Source: an uncultured bacterium
GTDB taxonomy: Bacteria > Lernaellota > Lernaellaia > JACKCT01
DNA length: 64,000 nucleotides
Direction of reading: 5' to 3'
Assembly (NCBI GenBank): GCA_964586775.1
Contig: CAZPJD010000225.1
Location: 464 to 64,463 of the forward strand
Positions 2,661 through 57,606 of the stretch are shown piece by piece. Position 1 is the first letter of the stretch. Every line of letters begins with the position of its first letter. The position numbers and the translations under genes are program-made. The notes beneath the pieces were generated by a model that was not told the origin of the DNA, made no database searches, and saw nothing but the letters and a program-made list of their open reading frames with translations.

Positions 2661-4712
2661 ATGTCCCGCAAAGCGGCGGCGCTGGCCGTCATGTTGACCG
2701 TTCTGGCCGTGTGCGCGGCCGTTTTCCTGGCGTCGCCCCGGGACGACCTCGCGGCGGCGGACGTTTTCGCCAACGGCGCGATCGGCCCGCACGCGATGGA
2801 CCCCGTCCACCCGGTCGTGTTGCCCGCTCCCCAGTGGCCGCCGCGCGTCGTGAGCGCGTTTCCCAACACGTCGTACTTCTACGCCTTCGACAAGATCTAC
2901 CTGTTCGGCTACATCGATGGCACGACCTACACGCTCTACAACGCGGGCGGATCGCCGATCCAGAGCGGCACGCTCAACGACGGCGAGCACGTCGAGTTCG
3001 CCATCCTCACGGGTGTGTATCGCCTCGACGCCTCTGACCTGATCGCCGTGCTCGTGGGCAACGCCGACAACAACATCGTCGGTTACTACGCCGTCAACGA
3101 ACACTCGCTCGCCGTGGGCAACAAGTTCTACAGCTACCAGTACGCCAGCGGCCCCGACATGAAGCAGATCGCGTTCGCCTATCAGAACGGCACGACGATC
3201 CAGGCGTTCAACATGAACACCGGCGCTTCGCTCGGCACCACCACGATCAACGCGGGCGAGCACTGGGTGCTCAACACCGTTGCGAGCCGAAACAAGTACA
3301 TCAAGACGATCGCCGACAAGCCGATCTCGATCCTGAATTTCAGCGACATCGGTTACGCCGTGCCCGCGTCGACGGGCCTGTTCTCGGGCAAGCTCTTCCT
3401 GGGATACGCGGGATCGACGAGCGGCGACGGCGACGTGGTCGTGTCGAGCTTTACCGACGGCAACACCGTGACCGTGACGAACTCCACCACGAACGCCGTC
3501 ATCTTCACCGGCACGCTCGATCGCGGCGAGATGTGGCGGCAGACCTTTGCCGACATGTACTTCAAGGTCGAGTCGTCGGCCAACGTGTCGGTGAGCGTCG
3601 TGCCCTACATCGGCGCGGCGGGCGATTACCACTACATGTCCATCGCGTCGGACGACGTGGGCACGCGCATCGGCATCGATTTCTACTTCACCACCGTGAA
3701 CGGCCAGATCGACGTCTTCGCGTACGAGGACGCGACCAACGTCACCGTCACGGATACGCGCGGCACGGTGGACCCCGGCGACGACCTCGTGGCGTGGTCG
3801 GGCGCGCTCGATCAGGGCGGCCACCAGATGGTGACGTCGTACATGACGCAGTGGCACGTCGCGGCCGACAAAGGCGTGTCGGTGTTCACGAGCTTCGGAA
3901 CGCAGGCGGGTTCGGAGTTCATCCCGCTCTACGGCATCATCCTCGAGTGCGACAACGACGGCGACGGCCACGACGGGCCGCAGTGCGACGGCGACGATTG
4001 CAACGACTGGGACGACACGATCTATCCCGGCGCCGAGGAGATCAACTGCGATCGCATCGATCAGGACTGCGACGGAGAGGACCAGTGCCTGTGCGAAGGT
4101 CCCGAAGACTGCGACGACGGCATCTTCTGCAACGGCGCGGAAGAGTGCGACACGCAGACCGGGCTTTGCGGGCCGGGCGATTTCCCGTGTCCCGACGACG
4201 GCCTGTATTGCACCGGCCGCGAGCAGTGCAACGAAACGACGGACACGTGCGAGCAAAAGCAGGTGCCGAACTGCCCGGACGACGGCGCGTACTGCAACGG
4301 CGACGAGCTGTGTGACGAAGACCTCGACATGTGCGGTCACACCGGCAATCCGTGCCCCGACGACGGAGTGTTCTGCAACGGCTACGAGGAGTGCAACGAG
4401 CTGTCCGACCTGTGCGAGACGAACGTCGTGTGTGAAGACGACGGCGCGTTCTGCAACGGCGCGGAGACGTGCAACGAAGAGGCCCAGACCTGCGACCACG
4501 AGGGCAATCCCTGCCCCTCGGGCGAAATCTGTCTGGAAGACACGGACGAGTGCCTCGCCGGGGACGATGACGACATCGAGCCGCCGGCCGACGATGACGA
4601 AGAAGATCCCGGTCCGACGCCCGCCGGCGAAAAGGAAGAGGATGCGGGCTGGCCCGAGGGTCAGGTGACCGGCGGCTGCTGCGGTTGCGGAGACAACGGC
4701 ACGGACGACTGA
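2661..4712 (+). CDS. Secreted repeat protein with MopE-type and Myxococcus-type cysteine-rich repeats and an acidic Cys-rich C-terminus
   Basis: The real start is an internal ATG (MSRKAAALAVMLTVLAVCAAVFLA, a signal/anchor) within track ORF 1533-4712. About four beta-rich internal repeats of the form xTxVTVTDxxG...GxLxxGE. One CDGDDCNDWDDTIYPGAEEINCDRIDQDCDG motif. Five C(P/D/E)DDGxxC(N/T)GxExC modules. Tail is DDDDIEPPADDDEEDP...GGCCGCGDNGTDD. Confidence 0.75.
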   Translation: MSRKAAALAVMLTVLAVCAAVFLASPRDDLAAADVFANGAIGPHAMDPVHPVVLPAPQWPPRVVSAFPNTSYFYAFDKIYLFGYIDGTTYTLYNAGGSPIQSGTLNDGEHVEFAILTGVYRLDASDLIAVLVGNADNNIVGYYAVNEHSLAVGNKFYSYQYASGPDMKQIAFAYQNGTTIQAFNMNTGASLGTTTINAGEHWVLNTVASRNKYIKTIADKPISILNFSDIGYAVPASTGLFSGKLFLGYAGSTSGDGDVVVSSFTDGNTVTVTNSTTNAVIFTGTLDRGEMWRQTFADMYFKVESSANVSVSVVPYIGAAGDYHYMSIASDDVGTRIGIDFYFTTVNGQIDVFAYEDATNVTVTDTRGTVDPGDDLVAWSGALDQGGHQMVTSYMTQWHVAADKGVSVFTSFGTQAGSEFIPLYGIILECDNDGDGHDGPQCDGDDCNDWDDTIYPGAEEINCDRIDQDCDGEDQCLCEGPEDCDDGIFCNGAEECDTQTGLCGPGDFPCPDDGLYCTGREQCNETTDTCEQKQVPNCPDDGAYCNGDELCDEDLDMCGHTGNPCPDDGVFCNGYEECNELSDLCETNVVCEDDGAFCNGAETCNEEAQTCDHEGNPCPSGEICLEDTDECLAGDDDDIEPPADDDEEDPGPTPAGEKEEDAGWPEGQVTGGCCGCGDNGTDD

Positions 4713-20220: not shown

Positions 20221-22560
20221 TCAGATCTCGTACCAGCAGCCGTCGGCGGCGGTCATGAAGGCGTCGTCGTCGCTGTCGAGCTCGCCGGACTGATCGAGGT
20301 CCGCGCCATCGCACCAGCTATTGCCGGCGTCGCACGACGCACCCTCACCGAAGTTCGTCCACGCCGTGTCGAAGTCGGCCTGATCGTCGGCGTCCACATC
20401 GCCGTCGCCGTCGAGGTCGGGCCGCTCGCAACCCAGAACCGCCCACGAGCAGTCGAGCACGGTGGGTTCCATCGCGCAGTTGGGGATCTCGTTCAGATAG
20501 ATCGCCCCGCCGAAGCCCTGGTGCGTGATGTTGGGAATCTCCTCCCAGTCGCCGTCGACGTTGACGACCTCGTAATGATCGCCGTTGCGCTTGATCGGCT
20601 TGTCGGCCTCGGTGGGGAAGCGGTCCCAATAGCGGTCGTAGGTTTCCGGCCGATCGGCGTAGCCGTTCACCTCGGCGAGGATCTGGCTCCACAAATCCGC
20701 GTCGCTCCACAGCGCGCGCGGCGTGCTGTCGCCGCGATTCAGCACGTCCTCGAACACATCCTGATAGCGCTCGGCGCGCACCCAGCCCTGCGGGTCGTAA
20801 TCGGCGTTGCCCACGCCCGCGATGTGCGCGTACTGGGCGACCTTCTGGAGTTCCTCGATCGCCTCGTTCACGTAATTCGATGGCGGCACGGGCTGCGCCT
20901 GCGCCCAGTCGAGCGTGAGCTGCGCGCTGATGCGGTGCAGCTCGGTGATGTGGAAGAGCGCCTCGCGCGCCTCCTGCAGCAGATCGCCCTTGTTGGCGAG
21001 CTGCGCGTAATACACCAGCGCGAAGGCGGCCATCTCGGGCTGGTCGGTCGCGTCGGCGATCTGCATCAGGATGTCGGCCACGCTCGACCCGCCCAGGTTG
21101 ACGGCGATGCGCATGAGGTCTTCGAGCGACTGGCCGAGGATGTTGAGGTTGTAAATGTCGCCCCAGCCGAGGCCGATGTAGGCGTCATCCATGTTTTCGC
21201 AGGTCTTCGTCAGGTTGCCGGGAACCGGGATGCCCAGCGCCTCGAGCAGCATCTTGATCGCGATGATCTCATACGACCCCGGCGTCTCGACGGGCTCCGT
21301 GGGCGAGGTCAGGCCGTCCGCCGACATCGCCTTGGCCATGTACGACATCTGGCAGGAATTCATCGAGCCGAGCCACTCGGGGCCCTCATCCGCGCCGTCG
21401 GGGCGGATTTCGCCGGCGACGATCAGGTGGTCCTCGTCATAGGGCTCGAACTCGCCCACCGTCATCAGGTTGTAGCCCTCGCCGATGGTGCGATCGCCGA
21501 TGCGCTGCCCGGCGGCCCACGCGCGCTCGGCCGAGGCGCGCACGTCGGCGTCGGCGCCGGCGTCGTTCATCGCCTCGAGCGCGGCGAAGTAGCCCACGCC
21601 GAAATCGGGGAAGTTGTCGCGGCTGTTGTGATTGCCCCAGAAGTAGCCCTCGAAGGGCCCGAGCTGGCTGATCATGTACGACGAGCAGCAGTTCGAGATG
21701 CGCAGGTAGTAGGGCATCTCCTCGAAGACGAATGTCACGGCGTAGTCGCCGGGGCGCAGGATCGACTCGATGCGGAAGTAGTGGTCCGTCGGTTCGCCGT
21801 TGATGGCATACACACCATCGGAGAAGAACGCGTTGATGATCTCTTCTTCGAGCGTGGGCGAGTAGTCCTCGGCGGGGTCGATGGGCGCGCCGTCCAGCGT
21901 GCGCGTCACGGTGCCGCCGGGGCCGTCGATGGTGACGGTAAATCCGGTCTGCCACTCGCGGCAGGTGAGACCGTCGATGCCCTGGATTTCCTCGGCGTAG
22001 GCGAGGCCCTCGAACTGGCGGATCGCGGTGAGGGCCAGTTCGCGCGTGCGGAAGATCTTGTAGGCCTGATACGCGTTGAAGGCTGAGAAGCCGATCCAGT
22101 TGTTGTCCACCGGGTGGAGCTGGACTTCGTAGTCGCTGCCGTCCTTGGCGATGTTCGTGTGGCCCAGCGTGTGCGCGGGCACCACGTCGCCGACGAGCAT
22201 GAAGCGGTTGTACGCCTTGAGCGTGCGGCCGATGCGCTCCTTGTAATAGAGCTTGAAGGCGTCGGCCTTCGTGGTCGGATTCACCCACGGATCGAAGGGG
22301 ATGTCGTCGTCGGCGTCGTCGTCCGTCGTATCGTCGTCGGTCGTGTCGTCATCCGAGGTGTCGTCGTCGCCGGTGTCGTCATCCGGCAGCGGGGGGAACG
22401 TGTCGTCGTCGCCCGTGTCGTCGTCCGCGGCGTCGTCATCCGCCGCGTCGTCGTCCGGGGTGATCGTCGTCGGCCCGGAATCGTCGTCGTCATCGCCGCC
22501 GCACCCCGCGACAAACGCCAGAGCCATCACCACCGCCACCGCCCAACCCCACCTGTTCAT
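20221..22560 (-). CDS. Large lipoprotein of unknown function with N-terminal Asp-rich linker and C-terminal EF-hand/dockerin-like Ca-binding loops
   Basis: Start MNRWGWAVAVVMALAFVAGCGGDDDDD, with GGGAG RBS 8 nt upstream of the ATG at 22560. About 70-aa (D3-x)n linker. C-terminal DLDGDGDVDADD and DLDQSGELDSDD. Confidence 0.7.
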   Translation of the reverse strand: MNRWGWAVAVVMALAFVAGCGGDDDDDSGPTTITPDDDAADDDAADDDTGDDDTFPPLPDDDTGDDDTSDDDTTDDDTTDDDADDDIPFDPWVNPTTKADAFKLYYKERIGRTLKAYNRFMLVGDVVPAHTLGHTNIAKDGSDYEVQLHPVDNNWIGFSAFNAYQAYKIFRTRELALTAIRQFEGLAYAEEIQGIDGLTCREWQTGFTVTIDGPGGTVTRTLDGAPIDPAEDYSPTLEEEIINAFFSDGVYAINGEPTDHYFRIESILRPGDYAVTFVFEEMPYYLRISNCCSSYMISQLGPFEGYFWGNHNSRDNFPDFGVGYFAALEAMNDAGADADVRASAERAWAAGQRIGDRTIGEGYNLMTVGEFEPYDEDHLIVAGEIRPDGADEGPEWLGSMNSCQMSYMAKAMSADGLTSPTEPVETPGSYEIIAIKMLLEALGIPVPGNLTKTCENMDDAYIGLGWGDIYNLNILGQSLEDLMRIAVNLGGSSVADILMQIADATDQPEMAAFALVYYAQLANKGDLLQEAREALFHITELHRISAQLTLDWAQAQPVPPSNYVNEAIEELQKVAQYAHIAGVGNADYDPQGWVRAERYQDVFEDVLNRGDSTPRALWSDADLWSQILAEVNGYADRPETYDRYWDRFPTEADKPIKRNGDHYEVVNVDGDWEEIPNITHQGFGGAIYLNEIPNCAMEPTVLDCSWAVLGCERPDLDGDGDVDADDQADFDTAWTNFGEGASCDAGNSWCDGADLDQSGELDSDDDAFMTAADGCWYEI

Positions 22561-25012: not shown

Positions 25013-27862
25013 TCAACAGCCGCAGCCGTCGTCGTCGTCATCGCCGCCGCCGTCCGCCGCCGACGCGTCGTCGTCCGACGTATCGTCGTCCATCGAATCG
25101 TCGTCGGTGATGTCGTCGTCCGCCGTGTCATCGTCGACCGTGTCGTCGTCGTCGGTGTCGTCGTCCAACGTATCGTCATCCGTCGTGTCGTCATCGACGG
25201 TGTCGTCGTCGACGTCGTCATCCGCGTCGTCGTCGGTATCGTCGTCGCCGGGGATCGTGGTCGTCGTGGTCGATGTCGTGGACGTGGTGGTTGCAGTCGT
25301 GGACGTGGTGGTCGTTGTCGGCGTGCCGGTGCTCGGCCATCCCACGACCTCGATGTTGTCGAGGCCCCAGTACTGCGCGTCGAGCCCCGCGTTCTTGTAA
25401 TAGAAACGCACGAAGACCTGCGGATACAGATCGGCTTCGGGCAGGTCGAAGGTCACCGCGCCCTCCTGATCCGCACCCCAGTTCACCAGATTCGTCCACG
25501 TCACCCCGTCGTAGGACCACGCCACCTGCGCGCGGTCGAGCAGGCCGTGCCGATACTCGTGCCGGAAACGCAGTTCGATGCCCTCGTGGTGCGAGCAGTC
25601 GAGCGCGGGCGTGATGAGCTGTTCGTCGAGACGCTGGAACTCGCCCGTCGTCTCCTTATCCGCGGCGACGAAGCGGTCCATCCAATGCGGCGAGCTGCGC
25701 GATCCCGCGTTGTCGCTGTTCCACGTCACGGTGTTCGATCCGCCGTCCACGATCTGCCAGGGACGCGGCTCGAGATCGAAGTTGTCGAAGAAGATGCGGT
25801 CGGGCCCGGTGGGCGACGCGGTCACCTCCACCGTGTTGCCGTCGCAGTTGCCGAAGGGATCGCACGCGCGCACCACGTAGTACCAATCCGCGCCGTTGGG
25901 CGCCCATTGATCGAGCCAGGGCGACTCGGTCGCGGTGTCGATGGGGTCGTCGAAATCCTGAGCCCCGGACGCGTCCGCGCGGTAGATGCTGTAGACCACC
26001 ACGCCCGTGTCGGCCGCGGGATCCCACGTGATCTCGGCCTCGTTGTCGAGGCCCGTCGCGCCGGTCGCGCCCGCGAATGTCGGCGCGGCGCAGTCGGCGC
26101 TTGCGATTTTCGTCTCGACGACGTTGATGCCGCCCTCGCCGTCGTTGGCGTCGGTGTAGGTGACCGTGATCGTGTCGCCGTTCGCGAGTTGCAGCACGCC
26201 GTCGGCCGCGGGCGCGCCGGTCGCGGTGGCGATCTGGCCGCGGAAGAGGCCGTCCACTTCCGCGTCCTCGGTCAGGGCGAGCGTCTCGCCGCCAGGCTCG
26301 GTCGTGCTCTTCACGTTCACGTTCAGCGTGCCCGACAGATCGCCCTCGGTCACGGTGACGCGCACGACGTCGTCGCACGAGTACAGCGCACGGTCGATGG
26401 AGAGCGTCGCGTTCGACGTGACCATCTCGGCGAGCAGCCACCAGTACGCCTCGACCACGTCGATGCGCCCGCGCCCGTAGACGTTGTCCTCGCCGGCCGC
26501 GCCCAGATCGACGGCGGTCTCGTAGAGCGCCATCTTCACCTGCTCCACCGTCGCCTCGGGAAAAGCGCCGCGCAGCAGGATCGCCGCGCCGGTCACCGCG
26601 GGCGTGGCCATCGAGGTGCCGCTCATGGTGCTGTAGTTGTTGCCCGGCACCGACGACATGACGTTGTCGCCGATCGCCGAAACCTCGGGCTTGAGCGTCA
26701 GATTGTCGCAGCGCGACGGCCCGCGCGACGAAAAACTCGTGATCGTCGTGTTGTCCTGCTTGAGCGCGCCCACCGCAAAGGTGTTGAGCGACGTCGTGAT
26801 GCGATTCCCCGGCGAACGCAGCGATTTCGCCGTGGGTCCCTCGTTGCCCGCCGCGAAGAGCACCACCACGCCCGCGGCCTCGGCCGCGTCGATCGCCGCG
26901 TAAAAGTCGTTCGCGCACGACGGATTCGGGATGCCCCACGAGTTGTTCACCGCGTCGGGCACGTCGTCCACCGTGCCGGGGTTGCCGTCGGGATCCGCCA
27001 TCCACTCGAACGCGCCGATCGCGTCGCTGTAGATGTTGCCGCCGGGTACGTCGATCGTCTTCGCGCCGATCCACTTCGCGCCCGGGGCCATGCCGATCTG
27101 GTGCCCCGCGCCGTCGTCGCCCAGGATCGTGCCGAGGGTGTGCGTGCCGTGCGAGCCGGAGTCCGTCGGGAAGGTCTCGCTGCCGACGGGATCGAACCAC
27201 GCGTGCTCGGGCAGCACGCCGCCGTCGAGCCCGCGCCACCGATCGGCGAACGCGGGGTGCGTGGCATCCGCGCCCGTGTCCTGATCGCAGGCCAGCGCGC
27301 CCGTGCCGTCGTAGCCCATCGCCCACAGCTCCGGCGCGCGCGACGCCGTGATGCTGCCCAATATGCCCGTGGCCACGTCATCGGCGGCGATCGCGTCGCC
27401 CACGGCGACCGGTTCGATCAGCTCCAGCGGCGGATCGAGATAGACATTCGCGATGTCGCGCCGCGCGCGCAGCGTTTCGATGTACGCCGCGTCGGCCTCG
27501 ATCGCGACCGCGTTGGCGATCCAGAATGGACGCACCCGGCGCACCGCCGCCCCCGCGCCCGCGAGCGTGCCCAACAGCGCGCCCTGCGTGGACGCGGCCA
27601 TGTCCTGCAATTCCTCGATGACGAGCGCGTGGCGCTGCGCCCGGGTCAGGCGCGCGTCGTCCATGAACGCGGTGAGCGCGGCCAGATCCACCGATTCGGC
27701 CATCGTGAGGTAGATGTTCAGCGTTTCGCCGGGCGCGGCGGCGGCCAGCACGTCCTCGAGCGCGTCGTCGAAACGCGCGGCGTTCGCGACGGAGGGCGAA
27801 ATCGCGAGAAGAATCAGCAGAGCGACAAAGGAAACATGGCGGGAAAAACGCAACGTGGACAT
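25013..27862 (-). CDS. Secreted subtilisin-like (S8) serine protease with MAM-like C-terminal domain, Thr-rich and Asp-rich tail ending GCGC
   Basis: Signal peptide MSTLRFSRHVSFVALLILLAISPSVANA, with GGGAG RBS (track alternative start 27874). Catalytic triad contexts DQDTGAD, GSHGTHTLG and GTSMATPAVTG. Tail is T-rich, then (DDDx)n, then GGGDDDDDGCGC-stop. Confidence 0.85.
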   Translation of the reverse strand: MSTLRFSRHVSFVALLILLAISPSVANAARFDDALEDVLAAAAPGETLNIYLTMAESVDLAALTAFMDDARLTRAQRHALVIEELQDMAASTQGALLGTLAGAGAAVRRVRPFWIANAVAIEADAAYIETLRARRDIANVYLDPPLELIEPVAVGDAIAADDVATGILGSITASRAPELWAMGYDGTGALACDQDTGADATHPAFADRWRGLDGGVLPEHAWFDPVGSETFPTDSGSHGTHTLGTILGDDGAGHQIGMAPGAKWIGAKTIDVPGGNIYSDAIGAFEWMADPDGNPGTVDDVPDAVNNSWGIPNPSCANDFYAAIDAAEAAGVVVLFAAGNEGPTAKSLRSPGNRITTSLNTFAVGALKQDNTTITSFSSRGPSRCDNLTLKPEVSAIGDNVMSSVPGNNYSTMSGTSMATPAVTGAAILLRGAFPEATVEQVKMALYETAVDLGAAGEDNVYGRGRIDVVEAYWWLLAEMVTSNATLSIDRALYSCDDVVRVTVTEGDLSGTLNVNVKSTTEPGGETLALTEDAEVDGLFRGQIATATGAPAADGVLQLANGDTITVTYTDANDGEGGINVVETKIASADCAAPTFAGATGATGLDNEAEITWDPAADTGVVVYSIYRADASGAQDFDDPIDTATESPWLDQWAPNGADWYYVVRACDPFGNCDGNTVEVTASPTGPDRIFFDNFDLEPRPWQIVDGGSNTVTWNSDNAGSRSSPHWMDRFVAADKETTGEFQRLDEQLITPALDCSHHEGIELRFRHEYRHGLLDRAQVAWSYDGVTWTNLVNWGADQEGAVTFDLPEADLYPQVFVRFYYKNAGLDAQYWGLDNIEVVGWPSTGTPTTTTTSTTATTTSTTSTTTTTIPGDDDTDDDADDDVDDDTVDDDTTDDDTLDDDTDDDDTVDDDTADDDITDDDSMDDDTSDDDASAADGGGDDDDDGCGC

Positions 27863-27967
27863 GGCAACTCCCATCGGGACCGGACCCGGCGGGATTCTAG
27901 CGCAATTCGCGGCGGAATTGCAGGGAGGTTGAGGGCGATTTGGTAGCGTGTCAGCGCAGTTCGACGC

Positions 27968-29978: not shown

Positions 29979-31547
29979 CTAGCACCCGCATCCGTCGTCG
30001 TCGTCATCGTCGTCGTCGTCGCCGTACGCGGGGATGTCGGTGGACGTGTCGTCGTCACCGGAATCGTCATCCGCCGTATCGTCATCCGCGGTGTCGTCGT
30101 CGGAATCGTCGTCCGCCGTATCGTCGTCGCTATCGTCGTCGCTGTCGTCATCGGTGTCGTCATCGTCGGGTTCGATCAGATCGTCGTCGCCGAAGGGTCC
30201 GCCGCCGGGCAGGATGCCGTAGTACACGCCCATCCAGTAGCCGACGAGGTAGTCCATACCCGGGCCCACATAGCGCTGGTCCTCGCCGTGGTTGCAGCCC
30301 GTCTCGAAGGGCGTCGACTGCCAATACATGTCGGTCCAGTGCCGGTCGTCCAGCTCGCGCGCCTCGGCGGTGATCGGGTCGATGTTGATGAGATCGTTCA
30401 GCCACGGGTACTGGTTGCCCAGCTCGTCGAGCAGCACCGACAGCGGATCGAGCGGCATGTCCGAGCACGTGCGCGCGCGGCGGTAGCTCGGCGCGTCCCA
30501 ATATCGGCCCAACGTGTTGAAGTGGTCGTCCTCGATCCAGTCGTAATCGTCTTCCACGCAATTGCCGAGACGCAGGCAGCCGGTCACGTGCGTCGAATCG
30601 AACCAGGGGTTGTGCGTTCGTTCCACATAGGGGCGGTTGTAGGTCATCCACAGATCGTAGAGTTCCTCGAGCCGCTCGCGATCCGGCCACAGGCGAAACA
30701 CCGCCTGAAAATCCAAATGACGCAGGTTGTTGCCGTAGTACTCGGTGTACTTGTTGTATCCGGCCCAGATGTCCACCGCGAGCACGGGCCGCCACAGGTT
30801 GTACTGCTGGTCGAGCAGTTCCCAAATCTCGGGTGTGTCGATCACGTACGCGGCCTGCACGAGCCACGCGATGCGCTTCATCGGGCCGATCCACGCCGCG
30901 CCGTTGCCCGTGTATTCGCCGTTCTGGTCGGTGATGTTCCAGTCGTTCGTCGTGAGCATCTCGATCACGTCGATGATGTCGTCGCGGATGCCCGCGCGCA
31001 CGTCCTCGTGCTCGGCGAGTCCTTCGAGCGCCTGATACGAGAGCACCATGCCCCACCACCAGCCGCTGTATTGGTCGCGGCTCGTGTGATCGACCCAGTA
31101 GAGCCCCGCGAACTCGCCCTCGCCGTGATTTTTCCAGTCGTTGTCATCGCCCTGGCCGCAGTTCCACGGGGCGATGTCCTCGCCCGCGAAGCGAGCGATG
31201 TAGCCCAGCGTCTGCGTGATCGCCATGGCGGTGCGCATGTATTCGACCACGCGCAGCACCTCGTCGAGCGCGCCCTCGTCGCCCGTGGCCATGTAGCGCA
31301 GCGCCTCGGCGCCCAGGTACATGCCCGTCCAGATCATGCTGTCGCCCTGATGGTGCAGGCAGCCGATCTCGGTACGCGTCTCGTCGGTGAACTCGACCGC
31401 GCCGGTGAGCGCACCGAGGCTTCCGTTGTGCCAGGTCTCGATCCACTCCTGATACGCCTCGGCTTTGGCGTGCAGATCGGGATCGAAATCGGCCCACGCG
31501 GGGGAAACCGCGAGACAAATCGTCAGAATCAACAGCGCGCGTCGCAT
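29979..31547 (-). CDS. Secreted protein of unknown function with C-terminal poly-Asp tail ending GCGC
   Basis: 522 aa. Signal peptide MRRALLILTICLAVSPAWA. Trp/Tyr-rich helical body. 70-aa tail GDDDLIEPDDDDTDDDSDDD...YGDDDDDDDDDGCGC-stop. Confidence 0.7.
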   Translation of the reverse strand: MRRALLILTICLAVSPAWADFDPDLHAKAEAYQEWIETWHNGSLGALTGAVEFTDETRTEIGCLHHQGDSMIWTGMYLGAEALRYMATGDEGALDEVLRVVEYMRTAMAITQTLGYIARFAGEDIAPWNCGQGDDNDWKNHGEGEFAGLYWVDHTSRDQYSGWWWGMVLSYQALEGLAEHEDVRAGIRDDIIDVIEMLTTNDWNITDQNGEYTGNGAAWIGPMKRIAWLVQAAYVIDTPEIWELLDQQYNLWRPVLAVDIWAGYNKYTEYYGNNLRHLDFQAVFRLWPDRERLEELYDLWMTYNRPYVERTHNPWFDSTHVTGCLRLGNCVEDDYDWIEDDHFNTLGRYWDAPSYRRARTCSDMPLDPLSVLLDELGNQYPWLNDLINIDPITAEARELDDRHWTDMYWQSTPFETGCNHGEDQRYVGPGMDYLVGYWMGVYYGILPGGGPFGDDDLIEPDDDDTDDDSDDDSDDDTADDDSDDDTADDDTADDDSGDDDTSTDIPAYGDDDDDDDDDGCGC

Positions 31548-36507: not shown

Positions 36508-37902
36508 ATGCGGACCTACTGCCGGAAGGTTTTGTTCCTTCCCCTCTTGGCCGTATTGCTTCTCACCGGCTGCACAGGAGACGACGATTCGCCTTCGTCG
36601 GACTCCGGCGTAACAAGCGATGACGACTCGGCGTCGGACGACGACACGACCGCCGATGACGACGCGGCGGACGACGATCTCGCGGACGATGACGACGACG
36701 GGCCGAGTTATCGCCCGATCCTGTTCGTGCATGGATTCCTCGAAGACGGCGACGCCTTTCACGCGCAGTCGCAGCGCTTCGCCACGAACGACTACGACCT
36801 CGATCGCGTCTTCGCCGTCGATTACAACACGCTCTGGGCGACGCCGGACGCCGTCGATCTGATCGGCGGGGCGATCGACGAGATCCGCGCGCTCACCGGC
36901 GCCGACGACGTCGACCTGATCGGCCACTCGATGGGCGGGTCGATGGGCGCGGATTATCTGCAGGGCGCCCCCGCGCCGAACCACGTCGCCCACTACGCCC
37001 ACGTGGCGTCCTTCGATTTCGAAACGGCGGGCATCGACGCGCCGATCCTCAATCTGTCGTCCGAGGCCGATGCGGTGGTCGGTGCGCGAGAGATCGACGG
37101 CGCGACCAACGTGGTGCTGCCCGGCCTCGACCACCTGCAACTCGCGACGTCGCCCGAGACCTTCGAGCAGCTCTTCACCTTCTTCAACGGCGAGCCGCCC
37201 GCGACGCTCGAGGTCGAGCCCGCCTCGCCCATCACGCTCTCGGGACGCACACTCGTCTTCGGCACGAACGAGCCCGCGCCCGCGCAGATCGTGCGCATCT
37301 TCGCGGTCGATCCCGCGACGGGGGAGCGCGACGCCGCCGAGCCCGACGCGGTTTTCACGTCCGACGCGACCGGCGCGTGGGGCCCATTCGATGCTGAGCC
37401 GGACACGCACTACGAGTTCGAGATCCGCGACGAGGCCGGGCGCTGGCCGGCGGTGCGTTATTACCGCGAGCCGTTTATGCGTTCGAGCCGCCTCGTGCAC
37501 TTTCGCGTGTTGCCCGATTTCGATTCGGCGTTCGCGGTGCCGTTCAAGCTGCTACCGCTGCTGGGTGATCGCGTCGCCTTTGCCTCGCTCAACCTCAACC
37601 GCGCGGCGATCGCCGGGCGCGACACCTTCACCGTGGACGGAATCGACCTGGCGACCGAAGACGTTACGCCCGCCGACCAGAGCGTTCTCGCGGCGGTGTT
37701 CGCCGATCTCAACTTCAACGGCGCCACCGACGGACCGATCCTGCCCGGCATCGTCGGCCTCTTTCCGTTCTTCACGATCTACGATCTTTTCGCCGATCCC
37801 GGCGTCGGCGATCCCATCCCGATCGAATTCAACGGACGCACTCTGACGATCCGAGGGGACGAGGGCCCCGCCGAGTCGCTCTCCATCGCTCAATTCGACT
37901 GA
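36508..37902 (+). CDS. Lipoprotein alpha/beta hydrolase (lipase/esterase-like) with N-terminal Asp-rich linker
   Basis: GAAGGAG RBS. Lipobox LLLTGC followed by TGDDDSPSSDSGVTSDDDSASDDDTTADDDAADDDLADDDDD. ILFVHGF and LIGHSMGG (GxSxG). Confidence 0.7.
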   Translation: MRTYCRKVLFLPLLAVLLLTGCTGDDDSPSSDSGVTSDDDSASDDDTTADDDAADDDLADDDDDGPSYRPILFVHGFLEDGDAFHAQSQRFATNDYDLDRVFAVDYNTLWATPDAVDLIGGAIDEIRALTGADDVDLIGHSMGGSMGADYLQGAPAPNHVAHYAHVASFDFETAGIDAPILNLSSEADAVVGAREIDGATNVVLPGLDHLQLATSPETFEQLFTFFNGEPPATLEVEPASPITLSGRTLVFGTNEPAPAQIVRIFAVDPATGERDAAEPDAVFTSDATGAWGPFDAEPDTHYEFEIRDEAGRWPAVRYYREPFMRSSRLVHFRVLPDFDSAFAVPFKLLPLLGDRVAFASLNLNRAAIAGRDTFTVDGIDLATEDVTPADQSVLAAVFADLNFNGATDGPILPGIVGLFPFFTIYDLFADPGVGDPIPIEFNGRTLTIRGDEGPAESLSIAQFD

Positions 37903-48788: not shown

Positions 48789-50033
48789 TCAGGCGCAGCC
48801 GCCTCCGCCGTCCGACCCGCCGCCGTCGTCGTCGCCGCCCCCGTTTCCGCCGCCGACGCCTCCGAGACCCGTGTCGCTGTCGTCGTCATCATCGTCGTCG
48901 TCACCGGGGAACCAGCCGTCGTCGTCATCGTCGTCGGACGGCTGCGTGGTGGTGGTGGTCGAGGTCGGGATCGAGGTTGTCGTCGGGCTCGTCGTCGTGG
49001 TCGTGCCCGGGTTCGTCGTGGTCGTCGTCGCGTGCGTGGTTGTCGTCGTGTGCGTCGTGGTGGTCACGTGCGTCGTGGTGGTGGTCGTCGTCGTGGTGAC
49101 GACAACCGTGTACTTCTCCATCACATCCGACGGAAAACCCAGAGGGCCGATCGGATCGCCGCCTGCCACCCACAGTGCGTTCTGCGACACCGCCCAGCCC
49201 ACGCGGTAGCGGTTTTGCACGACGTTCGTCGTCTGCGTCCACGATCCCCCGGGGGTCGCGGTGTAACCCTTGTTCACCCAACCGCCGCTGCCGTTTTCGC
49301 CGTGCGAAAAGATCAGCTTGCCGTTCGCCGTTCCCGACGCGCCGCCCCACCAGATCGTCGGCAGGTTCGGGCACGTGTCCCACGAGTCCGTCCCCGGCGT
49401 GTACACGTCGCAGGTGTTGAGCTCCGTGTCCGTCTCATCGACGCCGCCGAACACATAGAGCTTGCCGCCCGCGACGCCGCTTCCGTGGAACCGCCGCGAG
49501 GTGGGCATGGGCGTGAGCGCTAGCCATTCGTCGTTGTCGGGATCGTAGGACCAGCACTCGGGGTGCGACAAATCATTCTGATCGCCACCGCCGCACAGGT
49601 AGAGCAATGTGCCGATCTTGTCGAAGGTGTAGGCGTAGCGCGGCCCCGGCACCGTCGCCGTCATCGTCTCGAAAAGATTCCACGTGGTCTGGTATCGATA
49701 CACCGTGCCGACCACGTTCGTGCCATCGAAACCGCCCGGGATGTAGATCCAGCCGCCCAGCTCCGTGCCGTGGCCGAGCGCCAGGGCCGCCGGAAGGTTC
49801 GCCGCGTTCGACCATGTCAGTGTCGAGATCTTGTATTTATCCGACGAACGCAGGTAGCTGCCCAGCCAGTCCATTCCGCCGAACACATAGATGTTCTGGG
49901 CATCCGCAGCCATGATCGGATCAAAGCGCTGGGTGTCCATGCCCGACATCTGCGTCCATTGGGCAGCCGCGGGCGATGCCGCGACGATTGCGAACGCGAA
50001 CGCAACAAACCACAGAAAAGCGCGAGAGCGCAT
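48789..50033 (-). CDS. Secreted Kelch-repeat beta-propeller protein with Thr-rich and Asp/Gly-rich tail ending GGGGCA
   Basis: Signal peptide MRSRAFLWFVAFAFAIVAASPAAA. Repeated YDPxxDxW...P..R..H....GGKLYVFGG units. Tail is TTTTTTTTTHVTTTTHTTTTTH..., then DDDDDDGWFPGDDDDDDDD..., then GGGDDDGGGSDGGGGCA. Confidence 0.8.
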   Translation of the reverse strand: MRSRAFLWFVAFAFAIVAASPAAAQWTQMSGMDTQRFDPIMAADAQNIYVFGGMDWLGSYLRSSDKYKISTLTWSNAANLPAALALGHGTELGGWIYIPGGFDGTNVVGTVYRYQTTWNLFETMTATVPGPRYAYTFDKIGTLLYLCGGGDQNDLSHPECWSYDPDNDEWLALTPMPTSRRFHGSGVAGGKLYVFGGVDETDTELNTCDVYTPGTDSWDTCPNLPTIWWGGASGTANGKLIFSHGENGSGGWVNKGYTATPGGSWTQTTNVVQNRYRVGWAVSQNALWVAGGDPIGPLGFPSDVMEKYTVVVTTTTTTTTTHVTTTTHTTTTTHATTTTTNPGTTTTTSPTTTSIPTSTTTTTQPSDDDDDDGWFPGDDDDDDDDSDTGLGGVGGGNGGGDDDGGGSDGGGGCA

Positions 50034-55397: not shown

Positions 55398-57606
55398 ACG
55401 CCGCGTTGAGTTCGCCGAAGTCGTAGAACAGGTCCCCGACGCCGTCGGGCGTCCACAGACTCCAGGCGAGTTCCTCGGTCGCGGGCAGCCACAGCCAGTT
55501 CGGATCGGCGAAGTCGTCGCTCGTGCCCGGCGTCGGTTTGCCGATGAAGCCCGAGCCGCCGAAGTCGCTCGCGTTCTTCATCCACATGAAGCTCTGGCTC
55601 ACGTTGTCGCCGCCGGGGCCGCCCACGTAGGACGCGATGCCCGCCGCCGAGAATTCCGTGAACGTCGAAAACGCGTAGACGTAGTTGAGGATCGCCGAGC
55701 CGTTGGCAAGCCACGCGCACCAGGTGATGCCGTCGTCTTTGGGAATCAGGCCGTAGACGCTCGGCGGCTCGGGCGGATTCTCGCCCGGCGCGGGCGCGGC
55801 GAGGCGCGAGCCGTTCTGCATCGACGCGATCATGTCGGCCCACACGAAGACGTGCGTGCCCGGCATCTGCGAACGCACCCGGCGCACGACCTCGCTCACC
55901 GAATAGCCGAACAGCTCGGCGGGGGATTTTGCCGCCGACGCGCAGACGGGGTTTTCGTTGAAGCGCGCGATGTCGGTGTGGCCGATGTGGATCGCAGTGG
56001 GTGCGAGCACATCGCGGATGTTCGCGAGCATCGGCTCTAAAATGTCCGTGTACATTCCTTCGACGAGCGGGCAGGTGTCGTCGCTATCGCCTTCGGCGCA
56101 GTCGTATCCGCGCAGCGCGCACTCGGCGATCACGCGATCGGCGTGGCCGTACCACGAAAATGCGGGCACGGGTTCCATGCCGTGGGCGCGCACGAATTCG
56201 AACAGTTCGGAGCCGTCCTCGCGCACGAACTCGTTATCGAGATCGAAGTACCAGTCGCCGGGGATGACGAGGTGCGTGAGCTTGAGCTCGCCGAGGTAGC
56301 GGATGCGGCGCTTGGCCTCGTCGGTGAGCGGCAACAGGTTTTCAACGACCGTGCCGCGGATCGGGAAATCGGGCCGATCGGCGACGGTGATCGCGGGGAT
56401 CGCTTCGGCGCTTTCGTGCTGGTTGACGACGCGCAACAGGCTGCCCGTGCCGTAGATGGCGCCGGCGAAATCCGCGCCCGCCACGGCGATGCCGCTCGCC
56501 GAGACCTCGAGCAAGTACGAACCGGGCACGGTGCCCGCGGGCAGAAAGCGCGCGTCGTTCATGGCGCGCAGCACGCCGTTGTCGTCGAGGGTGCCGATGG
56601 CGATGACGTTATCCGCGCCGGTCACATCGACCGATGGCGCGAGCGCGGGCCGCGAGCCGGTCATGCGCTCGATGGCGTCCTGCAGAAACGACGCGACATC
56701 GGCGTAGCGCGACATCTGGTCGGGCGGCAGGGCGATCACGGTTTCGGCGTTCGGGGTAAAGCCCGCCTCGGGGCGGAAGCCCGCGGGGTGCGGCTCGGGC
56801 ACGATCGCCAGCTTGTAGGGACTTTGCACATCGGCGCGGAAGCCGCGGTCGTAAATTTCGGCCTCGCTCATCGCGCGATTCCACACACGCAGGTCGTCGA
56901 CCAGCGCGTCGGGCGCGGAGCCGGTTTGCAGGCCGCCCAACAGGATCGGCACGTCGGCGTCGAAGCCGGAGACGGGGCCGCGCATCTCGGCGACGAGCGA
57001 TCCGTCGAGATACAGGCGACGCACGGCGTCGTGATCGCGGTCGCCCACGCCCTTCCACGTGACGGCGAAGTGCGTCCATCCGCTGCGCCAGATCCACGGC
57101 TTGCGGATCGAGAAGCCATAGTAGTCGAGCACGGGGCGGTCGTCGGTGGGCGTCACGCCCGCGCCGCCGATGGCGAAGACGGGCTTGTTCTTCAGGCCGT
57201 CCTTGAACATCGAAAAATTCGTCTCGTCGCCGATGGCGAGCAGGTGGCGCTTGATGCCGTCGTGCCAGACGGTCTTGGGCAGCACCCACATCTCGAGCGT
57301 GCCGTCGGTCGAGGGCACGCGGCCGATGGCCGGGGCGACGAGCTGCACGCCCTCGCCCAGCGCGATCGCGTTGCCGGTCAAACCCGGCACAAACGCCGCG
57401 TCGGCGTCGCCCGCGACCAGCGTCGCGCCCTTGGCGGCCAAGTCGTCGGCGCTCTCGAAGTCGAGCGACCACACGAGCTCGCCGCCATCGTCGTCATCGT
57501 CGTCGTCATCGCCGCCGGAGCAAGCCGACGCAATCAGCGCGACGCACGCCGCCACGCACCAAATCCCCAGCGCGCCGAATCGCGCGTCGCGAAGTTTTCG
57601 CGTCAT
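55384..57606 (-). CDS. Lipoprotein with poly-Asp linker, LamG/ConA-like lectin domain and putative TIM-barrel glycoside-hydrolase-like domain
   Basis: GGAGGAG RBS. Lipobox LIASAC followed by SGGDDDDDDDDGG. LamG pattern LYLDGSLVAE...DDLRVWNRAMSEAEI. The later ADRPDFPIRG boundary and IHIGHTD are reminiscent of GH20-like enzymes, with low certainty. Confidence 0.6.
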   Translation of the reverse strand: MTRKLRDARFGALGIWCVAACVALIASACSGGDDDDDDDDGGELVWSLDFESADDLAAKGATLVAGDADAAFVPGLTGNAIALGEGVQLVAPAIGRVPSTDGTLEMWVLPKTVWHDGIKRHLLAIGDETNFSMFKDGLKNKPVFAIGGAGVTPTDDRPVLDYYGFSIRKPWIWRSGWTHFAVTWKGVGDRDHDAVRRLYLDGSLVAEMRGPVSGFDADVPILLGGLQTGSAPDALVDDLRVWNRAMSEAEIYDRGFRADVQSPYKLAIVPEPHPAGFRPEAGFTPNAETVIALPPDQMSRYADVASFLQDAIERMTGSRPALAPSVDVTGADNVIAIGTLDDNGVLRAMNDARFLPAGTVPGSYLLEVSASGIAVAGADFAGAIYGTGSLLRVVNQHESAEAIPAITVADRPDFPIRGTVVENLLPLTDEAKRRIRYLGELKLTHLVIPGDWYFDLDNEFVREDGSELFEFVRAHGMEPVPAFSWYGHADRVIAECALRGYDCAEGDSDDTCPLVEGMYTDILEPMLANIRDVLAPTAIHIGHTDIARFNENPVCASAAKSPAELFGYSVSEVVRRVRSQMPGTHVFVWADMIASMQNGSRLAAPAPGENPPEPPSVYGLIPKDDGITWCAWLANGSAILNYVYAFSTFTEFSAAGIASYVGGPGGDNVSQSFMWMKNASDFGGSGFIGKPTPGTSDDFADPNWLWLPATEELAWSLWTPDGVGDLFYDFGELNAAYGSY

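What the first reader, a model, noticed from the sequence alone, without database searches (positions are those of the whole stretch)
25013..25335. Recurrent C-terminal tag on secreted proteins: Thr-rich, then poly-Asp, then terminal GCGC
Seen: four signal-peptide proteins with unrelated catalytic bodies end in the same kind of tail.
- S8 protease (25013-27862): ...TTTTTSTTATTTSTTSTTTTT, then ~70 aa of (DDDx)n, then GGGDDDDDGCGC-stop
- Unknown secreted protein (29979-31547; tail at 29979-30191): (DDDx)n, then YGDDDDDDDDDGCGC-stop
- Kelch propeller (48789-50033; tail about 48789-49100): poly-Thr, then DDDDDDGWFPGDDDDDDDD, then GGGDDDGGGSDGGGGCA-stop
- Cys-repeat protein (tail 4560-4712): acidic, then GGCCGCGDNGTDD-stop
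Two of the tails terminate in the identical hexapeptide DDGCGC, with no hydrophobic helix or basic cluster after it. So it is unlike the PEP-CTERM, GlyGly-CTERM, MYXO-CTERM, LPXTG or T9SS CTD signals I know. It is the mirror image of the N-terminal GC-poly-Asp lipoprotein tethers in the same window. Inference: it is a candidate new C-terminal sorting or attachment tag. Possible roles are thiol-based lipidation (a CxC terminus is reminiscent of eukaryotic Rab prenylation motifs), disulfide or thioether coupling to a surface component, or metal and mineral binding by the Cys pair plus poly-Asp. No processing enzyme can be assigned from this window. The rhomboid at 34681-35325 is only a weak candidate.
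Basis: partly seen in the sequence, partly recalled or inferred. Interest (0 to 1): 0.72.

Follow-up and report, generated by a model that had tools for sequence, protein, structure and literature searches.

The report
MYXO-CTERM-like Cys tail lacking its helix
Many secreted enzymes of this uncultured bacterial lineage (Lernaellota/FEN-1099) end in a poly-aspartate spacer plus Gly-Cys-Gly-Cys. This matches the signature motif of the known MYXO-CTERM surface-anchoring signal, but the protein stops where that signal's membrane helix would begin, so a cysteine-based anchor may work without a helix.

Summary
All four tails are in the window. The same ending recurs on at least 95 long ORFs in seven related MAGs. 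Among Asp-rich tails not selected by my scan, 22 of 27 have Cys in the last five residues, against 26 of 372 other ORFs (p = 2e-18). Carriers are unrelated hydrolases with ordinary type-I signal peptides.

Within one protein family the tail never occurs with an N-terminal lipobox-Cys plus poly-Asp tether (0 of 30 against 47 of 62). In S8 homologues it sits where T9SS, IPTL-CTERM or tripartite signals sit. It therefore behaves as an anchor or sorting module.

Relatives carry long forms: poly-Asp, [G/A]CxC, spacer, TM helix, basic cluster. One passes the curated MYXO-CTERM model. The short tails stop at the second Cys column of those long forms.

Best reading: a helix-less short form of a MYXO-CTERM-class, Cys-dependent anchoring signal. 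The Cys modification is inferred and no processing enzyme was found. It is a new variant of a known kind.

The parts
25013..27874 (-). S8 subtilase gene. It has a type-I signal peptide, a Peptidase_S8 domain, a choice-of-anchor J domain (aa 697-843) and the C-terminal tail.
   Evidence: NF038128: 30.7 bits, cutoff 30; PF00082: 153.8 bits
25256..25324 (-). Thr/Ser-rich linker of the S8 protein (TPTTTTTSTTATTTSTTSTTTTT)
25028..25249 (-). (DDDx)n poly-Asp spacer of the S8 protein, 74 aa
25013..25027 (-). Terminal Gly-Cys-Gly-Cys plus TGA stop of the S8 protein. This is the signature element.
29979..31547 (-). Secreted protein of an uncharacterised family (no Pfam or NCBIfam hit) with a type-I signal peptide and the tail
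29994..30191 (-). (DDDx)n poly-Asp spacer of the uncharacterised protein, 66 aa
29979..29993 (-). Terminal Gly-Cys-Gly-Cys plus TAG stop of the uncharacterised protein
48789..50033 (-). Kelch beta-propeller protein with a type-I signal peptide. Thr-rich linker at 48936-49106, acidic/Gly-rich spacer at 48801-48935, single-Cys ending GGGGCA at 48789-48800.
   Evidence: GGCA is a recurrent ending in related MAGs.
2661..4712 (+). Cys-repeat protein. Acidic spacer at 4560-4670, GGCCGCG at 4671-4691, then DNGTDD-stop. It is an atypical variant because residues follow the Cys cluster.
   Evidence: A comparable ending, ECCGGYDS, occurs in S8 homologue P0104.
22480..22512 (-). N-terminal lipobox VAGC followed by GGDDDDD, in the lipoprotein at 20221-22626. 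This is the N-terminal counterpart tether.
36562..36588 (+). N-terminal lipobox LTGC followed by TGDDD and (DDDx)n, in the lipase-like lipoprotein at 36439-37902
57487..57531 (-). N-terminal lipobox ASAC followed by SGGDDDDDDDD, in the GH20b/LamG lipoprotein at 55384-57687

Best explanation
The tail is a short, helix-less form of a MYXO-CTERM-class, cysteine-dependent C-terminal anchoring signal.

Anatomy (shown):
- a type-I Sec signal peptide;
- a catalytic or binding body;
- a disordered spacer, sometimes Thr-rich, then (DDDx)n;
- a terminal [G/A]-C-x-x-COOH, most often GCGC, with the first Cys fixed three residues from the end.

Relatives carry the same poly-Asp-[G/A]CxC continued by a spacer, a TM helix and a basic cluster. 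That is the tripartite MYXO-CTERM design. The short form stops at the second Cys column of those long forms (shown).

Mechanism (inferred):
1. The protein is exported by Sec and its signal peptide is removed.
2. The thiol of the conserved Cys receives the same, still unidentified, modification that is proposed for the MYXO-CTERM Cys. A lipid is the most likely candidate.
3. There is no helix to remove, so the myxosortase-type (CPBP/Rce1-like) cleavage is either unnecessary or reduced to trimming the last 0-2 residues, as Rce1 trims -aaX from CaaX proteins.
4. The modified C-terminus tethers the enzyme to the envelope through a long polyanionic spacer. This is equivalent to the lipid-Cys plus poly-Asp tether of the N-terminal lipoproteins in the same genomes.
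5. The protein may reach the cell surface by a T2SS-like route, as proposed for MYXO-CTERM cargo.
For: 1. The motif is the same. [quoted passage not shown] 7 legend). The NCBIfam model TIGR03382 is named GC_trans_RRR.

2. Long forms occur in relatives.
- L113 4798-9877 holds six tandem paralogues ending poly-Asp-SACGC/ACSC/ACFC, spacer, TM, RRR. The first scores 24.6 on TIGR03901 against a cutoff of 20.
- P0365 and its neighbour end ...DDDDNDDGCGC-AVSERNPAAP-TM-KRR.
- S8 homologues P0120 and P0097 carry tripartite Cys tails that score 17.3 and 15.8, below the cutoff.
- In alignment A3 the short tails end at the second Cys column of the long forms.
- A chimera of the window tail plus the TraA helix and Arg cluster scores 29.6 on TIGR03901. 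Native TraA scores 20.6.

3. Both forms occur in one genome. L111 has three short tails and a PslG-like glycosidase with GGGCGG...TM...RRKKR within 11 kb. About 25 close homologues of that glycosidase carry a Cys-containing tripartite end.

4. The tail behaves as an anchor.
- In the 92-member family of the 29979-31547 protein, the N-terminal lipobox-plus-poly-Asp form and the C-terminal tail never co-occur: 0 of 30 against 47 of 62, p = 2e-13.
- 57-60 of 60 complete carriers have type-I, not lipoprotein, signal peptides.
- Homologous S8 proteases end instead in about 42 T9SS-CTD-like ends (my regex), IPTL-CTERM (38.9 bits, cutoff 20.5), dockerin-like or TM-plus-Arg ends.
- The window S8 has a choice-of-anchor J domain directly upstream of the tail.

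5. There are many diverse carriers per genome, as for other sorting signals. One MAG has at least about 30 with the strictest ending. Their bodies include S8, M14, C25, M28 and M36-like peptidases, kelch, BNR, PKD and purple acid phosphatase.

6. The terminal motif is conserved while the spacer varies freely in length and sequence.
Against: - The defining TM helix and Arg cluster are absent. Nothing obvious holds the Cys at the membrane, and a poly-Asp chain should be repelled by an anionic bilayer.
- Lipidation of the MYXO-CTERM Cys is itself only a model. Its authors mark the step as speculative and the enzyme is unknown.
- No CPBP (PF02517) gene, Lgt paralogue or other candidate transferase was found in the window or in about 0.75 Mb of related DNA. 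The sample covers only a few percent of those genomes, so this is uninformative rather than negative.
- The shared element is only 4-5 residues, so convergence cannot be excluded from sequence alone.
- No NCBIfam or Pfam model hits the short tails.
- 15 of 58 tails have a single Cys. A few have up to 9 residues after the Cys cluster, including the window's Cys-repeat protein.
- The lineage is not Myxococcota, where MYXO-CTERM has so far been delimited.
Confidence: 0.5

Rival explanations
1. The tail is a release variant. Loss of the TM helix and Arg cluster turns formerly anchored MYXO-CTERM-type enzymes into freely secreted ones. The poly-Asp-GCGC remnant is kept for another reason, such as recognition by the outer-membrane export step, solubility, or Cys-Cys dimerisation.
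For: TraA lacking its MYXO-CTERM is released into the medium through the T2SS. The short tails have no membrane-spanning element. Most carriers are degradative hydrolases that could act at a distance.
Against: A leftover motif should decay. Instead the terminal [G/A]-C-x-x is the most conserved part of otherwise hypervariable tails. It is also strictly exclusive with the N-terminal lipid tether in one family. Soluble homologues with neither tether exist (for example P0034 and P0036-38), so release needs no tail.
Confidence: 0.17
2. The terminal Cys or Cys pair attaches to something other than a lipid. Candidates are a disulfide or thioether bond to a surface or S-layer protein or a polymer, or coordination of a metal or metal-sulfide surface together with the cation-binding poly-Asp chain.
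For: CxC and CC pairs are classic redox and metal ligands (established chemistry, not tested here). 41 of 58 tails carry two Cys. Poly-Asp binds divalent cations and mineral surfaces (established knowledge). Described members of the lineage come from anoxic water of an Antarctic lake.
Against: 15 of 58 functional-looking tails have a single Cys. Disulfides are unstable in reducing, sulfidic habitats (inference). The N-terminal lipoproteins use the same poly-Asp spacer, so the spacer is not specific to this tail. The tail interchanges with lipid or TM anchors in homologues, which points to membrane tethering.
Confidence: 0.15
3. The tail is an independent invention unrelated to MYXO-CTERM. It would be a new tag whose GCGC ending converged on the same four residues, with its own dedicated machinery. 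One possibility is an extracytoplasmic enzyme that reads the free C-terminus at a fixed distance, like CaaX or Rab CXC prenyltransferases.
For: The Cys lies at a fixed -3 position from the free carboxylate in 46 of 58 tails. That geometry is irrelevant in a tripartite signal. The endings CXC, CCX and CC mimic Rab motifs. The curated MYXO-CTERM model does not hit the short tails.
Against: Long forms have an identical poly-Asp-GCGC context and pass or nearly pass the MYXO-CTERM model in relatives. A Cys-containing tripartite signal also occurs in the same genomes. Carriers are Sec-exported, so cytosolic prenyltransferases are implausible.
Confidence: 0.12
4. The tail is an artefact: low-complexity GAC repeats read in the wrong frame, assembly or frameshift errors, or stop-codon recoding that hides a downstream helix.
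For: The region is a degenerate tandem repeat of period 3/12/15. Long alternative ORFs overlap it on both strands.
Against: GC3 is 0.87-0.90 in the tail frame. The same ending appears in independent assemblies from many samples. All three stop codons are used, and no TM-like segment lies downstream in any frame. The two window tails use different codons.
Confidence: 0.01

Closest known systems
MYXO-CTERM sorting signal and myxosortase (TIGR03901 / TIGR03382 'GC_trans_RRR'; MrtX, MrtC, MrtP; Myxococcota)
   Same: - Sec-exported carriers with an N-terminal signal peptide.
- A disordered linker before the signal.
- A signature with an invariant Cys and a frequent second Cys (GCGC).
- Dozens of unrelated carriers per genome, including M36-like, phytase-like and protease bodies.
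- Long forms in relatives of this lineage pass the curated model.
   Different: - The short tail has no TM helix and no Arg cluster. The protein ends at the second Cys column of the long forms.
- The lineage is FEN-1099/Lernaellota-like, not Myxococcota.
- The linker is an extreme (DDDx)n.
- No myxosortase has been identified here.
Eukaryotic/archaeal CaaX processing (Cys prenylation, then Rce1/CPBP removal of -aaX) and Rab CXC/CC motifs
   Same: - A Cys at a fixed short distance from the free C-terminus with no hydrophobic helix.
- The endings CXC, CCX and CC resemble Rab motifs.
- Myxosortases are Rce1 homologues.
   Different: - The Cys is at -3, not -4.
- The following residues are Gly, Cys or Ser, not aliphatic.
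- The substrates are exported by Sec, so any modification is extracytoplasmic.
- No prenyltransferase was looked for or found.
Bacterial N-terminal lipoproteins (Lgt/Lsp/Lnt), including the acidic lipoprotein export signal next to the lipid-Cys in Bacteroidota (PMC5080379, PMC6222051; titles seen, details from my own knowledge)
   Same: - A small residue precedes the Cys.
- An acidic stretch lies directly next to the Cys.
- The same (DDDx)n spacer is used.
- The two tethers are interchangeable and mutually exclusive within one family.
   Different: - The Cys is at the opposite end of the protein.
- There is no h-region or lipobox context, so canonical Lgt recognition is not expected.
- Carriers have type-I signal peptides.
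T9SS C-terminal domain with PorU; GlyGly-CTERM with rhombosortase; PEP-CTERM with exosortase; IPTL-CTERM; LPXTG with sortase
   Same: They occupy the same slot at the end of homologous S8 proteases and follow choice-of-anchor domains. Carriers are surface-displayed hydrolases.
   Different: The tail has no folded CTD, no TM helix, none of the signature motifs and no model hit.
NCBIfam NF058595 'lipo-invert putative C-terminal anchoring domain'
   Same: By its name, it is conceptually a lipoprotein-like anchor at the C-terminus.
   Different: The model only weakly matches the N-terminal lipoprotein signal of the 20221-22626 protein (13.8-16.2 bits, cutoff 37). It does not match any tail. I found no publication on it.

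Membership tests
MYXO-CTERM (TIGR03901 / TIGR03382) | Signature motif with an invariant Cys, often a second Cys (GCGC) | tested here: met
   GCGC at 25016-25027 and 29982-29993. GCGC is the ending of 25 of 58 homology-derived tails, and a Cys lies in the last 4 residues in 56 of 58.
MYXO-CTERM (TIGR03901 / TIGR03382) | Transmembrane helix immediately after the signature motif | tested here: not met
   A stop codon follows the second Cys. No TM-like segment lies downstream in any frame for 92 of 95 tails, and the other 3 read as the next gene's signal peptide.
MYXO-CTERM (TIGR03901 / TIGR03382) | Arg-rich cytoplasmic cluster at the extreme C-terminus | tested here: not met
   Absent from all short tails.
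MYXO-CTERM (TIGR03901 / TIGR03382) | Score at or above the curated HMM cutoff (20 bits) | tested here: not met
   The short tails get no hit even at E = 10. Long-form relative L113:4798-5676 scores 24.6. P0120 scores 17.3 and P0097 scores 15.8.
MYXO-CTERM (TIGR03901 / TIGR03382) | N-terminal Sec signal peptide on carriers, and many unrelated carriers per genome | tested here: met
   57-60 of 60 carriers have type-I signal peptides. One MAG has at least about 30 strict-pattern carriers. The bodies are diverse.
MYXO-CTERM (TIGR03901 / TIGR03382) | Cognate CPBP-family myxosortase (MrtX/MrtC/MrtP) in the same genome | tested here: inconclusive
   No PF02517 hit among 58 multi-TM ORFs and no motif hit in about 0.75 Mb. 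The sample is only a few percent of the genomes. One YhfC-type (PF10086) gene was seen.
MYXO-CTERM (TIGR03901 / TIGR03382) | Taxonomic range limited to Myxococcota | tested here: not met
   Named carriers are Ca. Lernaella, Ca. Alcyoniella, the FR-FEN-1099-1 MAG and unclassified MAGs.
Bacterial lipoprotein signal (Lgt/Lsp lipobox) | An n-region and h-region followed by [LVI][ASTVI][GAS]-C near the N-terminus | tested here: not met
   Tail carriers have AxA-type type-I signals. The 3 regex hits have the Cys inside the h-region. At the C-terminus only the Gly-Cys dipeptide resembles a lipobox.
Rab-type CXC/CC or CaaX prenylation | Cys at a fixed distance from the free C-terminus | tested here: met
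   The first Cys is at -3 in 46 of 58 tails. Endings include CXC, CCX and CC.
Rab-type CXC/CC or CaaX prenylation | A cytosolic substrate and a cytosolic prenyltransferase (plus REP for Rab proteins) | tested here: not met
   Carriers have Sec signal peptides. Prenyltransferase genes were not searched for.
T9SS CTD, PEP-CTERM, GlyGly-CTERM, LPXTG, IPTL-CTERM | The respective signature motif or domain, recognised by curated models | tested here: not met
   No such model hits the tails or recurs among the 60 carriers. As a positive control, P0159 scores 38.9 on IPTL_CTERM.
   TIGR03902 scores 16.9 against a cutoff of 84. The protein is a generic PF01694 rhomboid. The tails have no TM helix.

The most novel reading that the evidence does not exclude
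A helix-independent, extracytoplasmic C-terminal cysteine lipidation pathway, a prokaryotic periplasmic counterpart of CaaX processing. An enzyme would read [G/A]-C-x-x-COOH on soluble, already exported proteins and attach a lipid. This would anchor roughly 5% of the genes of a whole candidate phylum. It would also expose the still unknown enzyme that modifies the MYXO-CTERM cysteine, and show that this enzyme does not need the TM helix.
Probability: 0.3. Interest if true: 0.85.

Novelty: new variant of a known kind. Interest (0 to 1): 0.66.

Why it matters
All described small C-terminal sorting signals of prokaryotes are tripartite: a motif, a TM helix and a basic cluster. These include LPXTG, PEP-CTERM, PGF-CTERM, GlyGly-CTERM, MYXO-CTERM, JDVT-, Synerg- and CGP-CTERM.

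Here the MYXO-CTERM signature motif is conserved at the very end of roughly one gene in twenty in a candidate phylum, with nothing after it. If these proteins are anchored, the Cys modification cannot depend on the helix or on myxosortase cleavage. That bears directly on the open question in the MYXO-CTERM model: what modifies the Cys, and in what order.

It also provides natural 'pre-cleaved' substrates, and a sharp phylogenetic profile for finding the enzyme.

In practice, annotation pipelines currently see nothing in these tails. The surface proteome of Lernaellota, mostly proteases, glycosidases and phosphatases, is therefore mis-described as simply 'secreted'.

Tried and rejected
1. NCBIfam and Pfam scans of the isolated tails, the four whole proteins and 60 carriers found no model covering the tail.
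2. NF058595 'lipo-invert' looked promising by name but only weakly matches an N-terminal signal peptide. A literature search for the term found nothing.
3. Literature searches for poly-Asp linkers or C-terminal Cys sorting found nothing on this motif. The phylum description (PMC9324843) does not mention it.
4. I guessed that a conserved 744-aa carrier was the C25/PorU-like one. It is an S8 protease. The four C25 carriers were not examined individually.
5. The hunt for a CPBP/myxosortase gene failed. Regex scans, a Pfam scan of 58 multi-TM ORFs and the neighbourhoods of tripartite proteins gave none.
6. The CreD-like genes next to the M14 carriers are not acyltransferases.
7. The YhfC-like protein has no sequence match to a solved structure and no orthologue in the other loci.
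8. A homologue search with the L113 long-form protein returned only one weak hit, although that hit (P0365) proved useful.
9. An exact look-up of the window protein in the assemblies found nothing, so the source genome is not identified.
10. Cluster look-ups gave no informative taxonomy.
The taxonomic range is therefore a lower bound, and absence from Myxococcota or other phyla is not shown.
12. Rejected explanations: frame or assembly artefact and stop-codon recoding, and the rhomboid as processing enzyme.

Full report

Yes.
- The S8 subtilase (25013-27874, minus strand) ends in a Thr-rich stretch, then 74 residues of (DDDx)n, then GGGDDDDDGCGC and a TGA stop.
- The uncharacterised secreted protein (29979-31547, minus strand) ends in 66 residues of (DDDx)n, then YGDDDDDDDDDGCGC and a TAG stop.
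- The kelch protein (48789-50033, minus strand) ends in poly-Thr, then an acidic and Gly-rich stretch, then GGGGCA.
- The Cys-repeat protein (about 2661-4712, plus strand) ends in an acidic stretch, then GGCCGCGDNGTDD.

The two GCGC ends use different codons and different stop codons. The tail frames have GC3 of 0.87-0.90.

**2. Is it more than chance?**

A homologue search with the 29979-31547 protein places the window among FEN-1099/Lernaellota MAGs and unclassified relatives, including Ca. Lernaella stagnicola and Ca. Alcyoniella australis.

- About 95 matches are the ends of long ORFs with Asp-rich tails. All lie in seven MAGs: DAIMDW, DAIPLW, DAINPV, JAOSJX 'FR-FEN-1099-1', CAYSHR, CAXXWT and CAZQAE.
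- About 20 matches lie in Bacteroidales, Nocardia, Rhodobacteraceae and other taxa. These are short ORFs with no Asp-rich tail.
- The same pattern has no match in 2.9 million viral contigs.

I then looked at ORFs in those loci that were not selected by the pattern. Of 27 Asp-rich tails, 22 have a Cys within the last five residues, against 26 of 372 other ORFs (p = 1.9e-18).

In 58 tails found purely through homology of the protein bodies:
- the first Cys is at position -3 in 46;
- it is preceded by Gly in 44 and by Ala in 6;
- the residues after it are almost only Gly, Cys or Ser;
- 41 tails have two Cys.

Endings seen include GCGC (dominant), GCCG, ACGC, GCGG, GCSC, GGCA, GCAC and GGCG.

Recoding or pseudogene remnants are excluded. 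Across 95 tails the stops are TGA 66, TAA 20 and TAG 9, and no TM-plus-basic segment lies downstream in any frame.

About 5% of ORFs in unbiased samples carry the tail: 22 of about 399 in the loci, and 3-4 of about 45 in the window.

**3. What kind of thing is it?**

Three lines of evidence show that it behaves as an anchoring or sorting module.

(a) Carriers.
- 57-60 of 60 complete carriers have ordinary AxA-type signal peptides, not lipoprotein signals.
- Their bodies are unrelated. They include S8, M14, C25, M28 and M36-like peptidases, kelch, BNR/sortilin, PKD and purple acid phosphatase.
- The closest NCBIfam families for many of these bodies are ones named for their dependence on myxosortase, rhombosortase, T9SS or LPXTG.

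(b) Mutual exclusivity.
- In the 92-member family of the 29979-31547 protein, 30 members have an N-terminal lipobox Cys followed by poly-Asp, and none of these has a C-terminal tail.
- 47 members have the poly-Asp-Cys tail, and none of these has a true lipobox (p = 2e-13).
- Both types occur as paralogues within a single MAG.
- One homologue, P0039, has a plain C-terminal TM helix plus RRRR instead.

(c) Choice of anchor.
- The 150 best representatives of the S8 family share the N-terminal architecture but end differently.
- About 42 have T9SS-CTD-like ends (my regex). Others have IPTL-CTERM (confirmed at 38.9 bits against a cutoff of 20.5), dockerin-like repeats, or a TM helix plus Arg cluster.
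- In the closest relatives the end is the poly-Asp-Cys tail.
- The window S8 carries a choice-of-anchor J domain just upstream of the tail (30.7 bits, cutoff 30).

**4.

The published description of MYXO-CTERM is a short signature with an invariant Cys, then a TM helix, then an Arg-rich cluster. [quoted passage not shown] A sister model is named GC_trans_RRR. The tail therefore ends in the MYXO-CTERM signature.

Relatives of this lineage carry the full-length version in the same context.
- On an 833-kb metagenome contig, six tandem choice-of-anchor-J-like paralogues end in ...DDDDNDDDSACGC-ATSSSDPGPG-LFAVMLLVGLFAMGMSL-RRRGKK and variants (L113 4798-9877).
- The first of these passes the curated MYXO-CTERM cutoff (24.6 against 20). 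The sixth passes choice_anchor_J (41 against 30).
- P0365 and its neighbour end in ...DDDDNDDGCGC-AVSERNPAAP-LAAVMLLIGLALMVLG-KRR.
- Two S8 homologues, P0120 and P0097, have sub-threshold MYXO-CTERM tails (17.3 and 15.8 bits).

In a small alignment the short tails stop at the second Cys column of the long forms. A chimera of the window tail with the TraA helix and Arg cluster scores 29.6 bits on TIGR03901, higher than native TraA at 20.6. Most of that score comes from the borrowed part, so this only shows that the junction is compatible.

Short and tripartite signals also coexist in one genome.
- Within 11 kb, L111 encodes three short-tail proteins and a PslG-like glycosidase ending GGGCGG...TM...RRKKR.
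- About 25 close homologues of that glycosidase carry a Cys-containing tripartite end.
- In about 0.66 Mb of the seven MAGs I found about 100 short tails and a single tripartite Cys signal.

**5. How it most likely works**

Shown:
- Sec-type signal peptides on the carriers;
- a disordered Thr-rich and/or poly-Asp spacer;
- a conserved [G/A]-C-x-x-COOH;
- interchange with the N-terminal lipid tether and with TM-type anchors;
- identity of the motif and its context with long-form MYXO-CTERM signals.

Inferred:
- After export, the Cys thiol receives the same modification that is postulated for the MYXO-CTERM Cys. Guo et al. propose lipidation by an unidentified, possibly Lgt-like, enzyme, followed by cleavage distal to the Cys by the CPBP/Rce1-like protease MrtX and T2SS-dependent surface display. 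They mark these steps as speculative.
- The short form has no helix, so cleavage is either bypassed or reduced to trimming 0-2 residues, much as Rce1 trims -aaX.
- The result would be a C-terminal lipid-Cys at the end of a polyanionic spacer, the counterpart of the N-terminal lipid-Cys plus poly-Asp tether.

I put 0.5 on this overall reading. I put about 0.65 on the narrower claim that the tail is a functional sorting or anchoring signal homologous to the MYXO-CTERM signature. I put about 0.35 on the narrower claim that the Cys is lipidated.

The main difficulties are these.
- Nothing obvious brings a soluble polyanionic C-terminus to a membrane enzyme.
- The lipidation step is unproven even in Myxococcus.
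- I found no CPBP gene or transferase in the window or in about 0.75 Mb of related DNA. That sample is far too small to count as a negative result.
- One YhfC-type gene (PF10086, 1e-33) is present. I know this family as a distant member of the type II CAAX protease superfamily (own knowledge, not tested here).
- By its EExxR and HxxxN motifs I place it at L080:5655-6440, convergent with a tail gene. It is only a lead.

**6. Rival explanations**

- A release variant that keeps the motif for another reason (0.17).
- Thiol attachment to a non-lipid partner, metal or mineral (0.15).
- Convergent, unrelated new tag read from the free C-terminus (0.12).
- Artefact (0.01).

The fixed -3 position of the Cys is the best argument for an enzyme that reads the free C-terminus. 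It fits both the best explanation and the convergent-tag rival.

**7. Novelty and verdict**

I found no curated model and no paper that describes a helix-less Cys-terminal signal.
- Haft's survey treats all four Cys-containing signals as tripartite.
- It delimits MYXO-CTERM to Myxococcota.

The feature fails two defining features of MYXO-CTERM, the helix and the Arg cluster, so it should not be filed as a member. It shares the signature motif, the context and the carrier logic, and long forms occur in relatives. I therefore class it as a new variant of a known kind. It is of clear interest to people working on prokaryotic protein sorting.

Noticed in passing
window 19394-19575: An intergenic tandem repeat of 43 nt x 4.2 copies with 89% matches (consensus CCCGGCTGTGCGGAACCCTTGCGGGTCATGTGGCACAGCCGCC). 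It lies between the gene ending at 19249 and the lipoprotein gene at 20221-22626.
   Followed up: no
window 9831-11189 (+), with 7439-9781 (+), 17-1492 (-) and 37963-39978 (+): A divergent MBOAT/DltB-like membrane protein (28.5 bits, E = 8.8e-7) sits behind a TPR membrane protein. There is also a PMT_2-like GT-C protein and a large membrane protein with no hits. These could be envelope-modifying enzymes, for example for O-glycosylation of the Thr-rich linkers or for acyl transfer. No link to the tails was shown.
   Followed up: partly
window 23129-24940 (+): This ORF has five CxxCH haem motifs (CLNCH, CIDCH, CGQCH, CADCH, CGTCH) and looks like an NrfA-type cytochrome c nitrite reductase. It lies directly downstream of the S8 gene's 3' end. 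I read this from the translation only.
   Followed up: no
window 29979-31547 (-) and P0001-P0092: The body of this protein belongs to a sizeable family with no Pfam or NCBIfam hit. A conserved ...DYLVAYWMxxYYGxLPG marks the end of the body. The family switches freely between N-terminal lipoprotein, C-terminal Cys tail, TM anchor and untethered forms.
   Followed up: partly
L113 4798-9877: A tandem array of six paralogues, 231-293 aa each. Each has a signal peptide, a choice-of-anchor-J-like domain, an acidic linker and a CxC-TM-basic tail. The array lies just upstream of a PslG-like glycosidase that has its own Cys-containing tripartite tail.
   Followed up: partly
L080 5655-6440 (-): A YhfC-type intramembrane protease-like gene (EExxR, GHGG and HxxxN motifs). 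It is convergent with, and 150 nt from, the end of a tail-bearing phosphatase-like gene at L080:4083-5507. I assigned it to the single PF10086 hit by motif only. It has no orthologue in the other loci.
   Followed up: partly
P0039 (homologue of the 29979-31547 protein): It ends in a TM helix, then RRRR, then CGA. A Cys therefore lies at -3 on what should be the cytoplasmic side of a C-terminal anchor. This could be coincidence or another variant.
   Followed up: no
window 20221-22626 (-), N-terminus: The new NCBIfam model NF058595 ('lipo-invert putative C-terminal anchoring domain') weakly matches this N-terminal lipoprotein signal plus its GC-poly-Asp (13.8-16.2 bits, cutoff 37). What that model describes could not be established from the tools or the literature.
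   Followed up: partly
window 34681-35346 (-) and 33376-34673 (+): A generic rhomboid protease (PF01694, 108.9 bits) lies next to ORFs that read as tatB-like and tatC-like. One TatC hit appeared in the membrane-ORF scan. The rhomboid is not a rhombosortase.
   Followed up: partly
L109 20073-22398 and 6245-8367 (MAG GCA_020633875.1): Clusters of small, Cys-rich secreted paralogues with no Pfam hits. They are in the MAG that carries the tripartite-tailed S8 homologue P0120. No short tails occur in this 24-kb sample.
   Followed up: no
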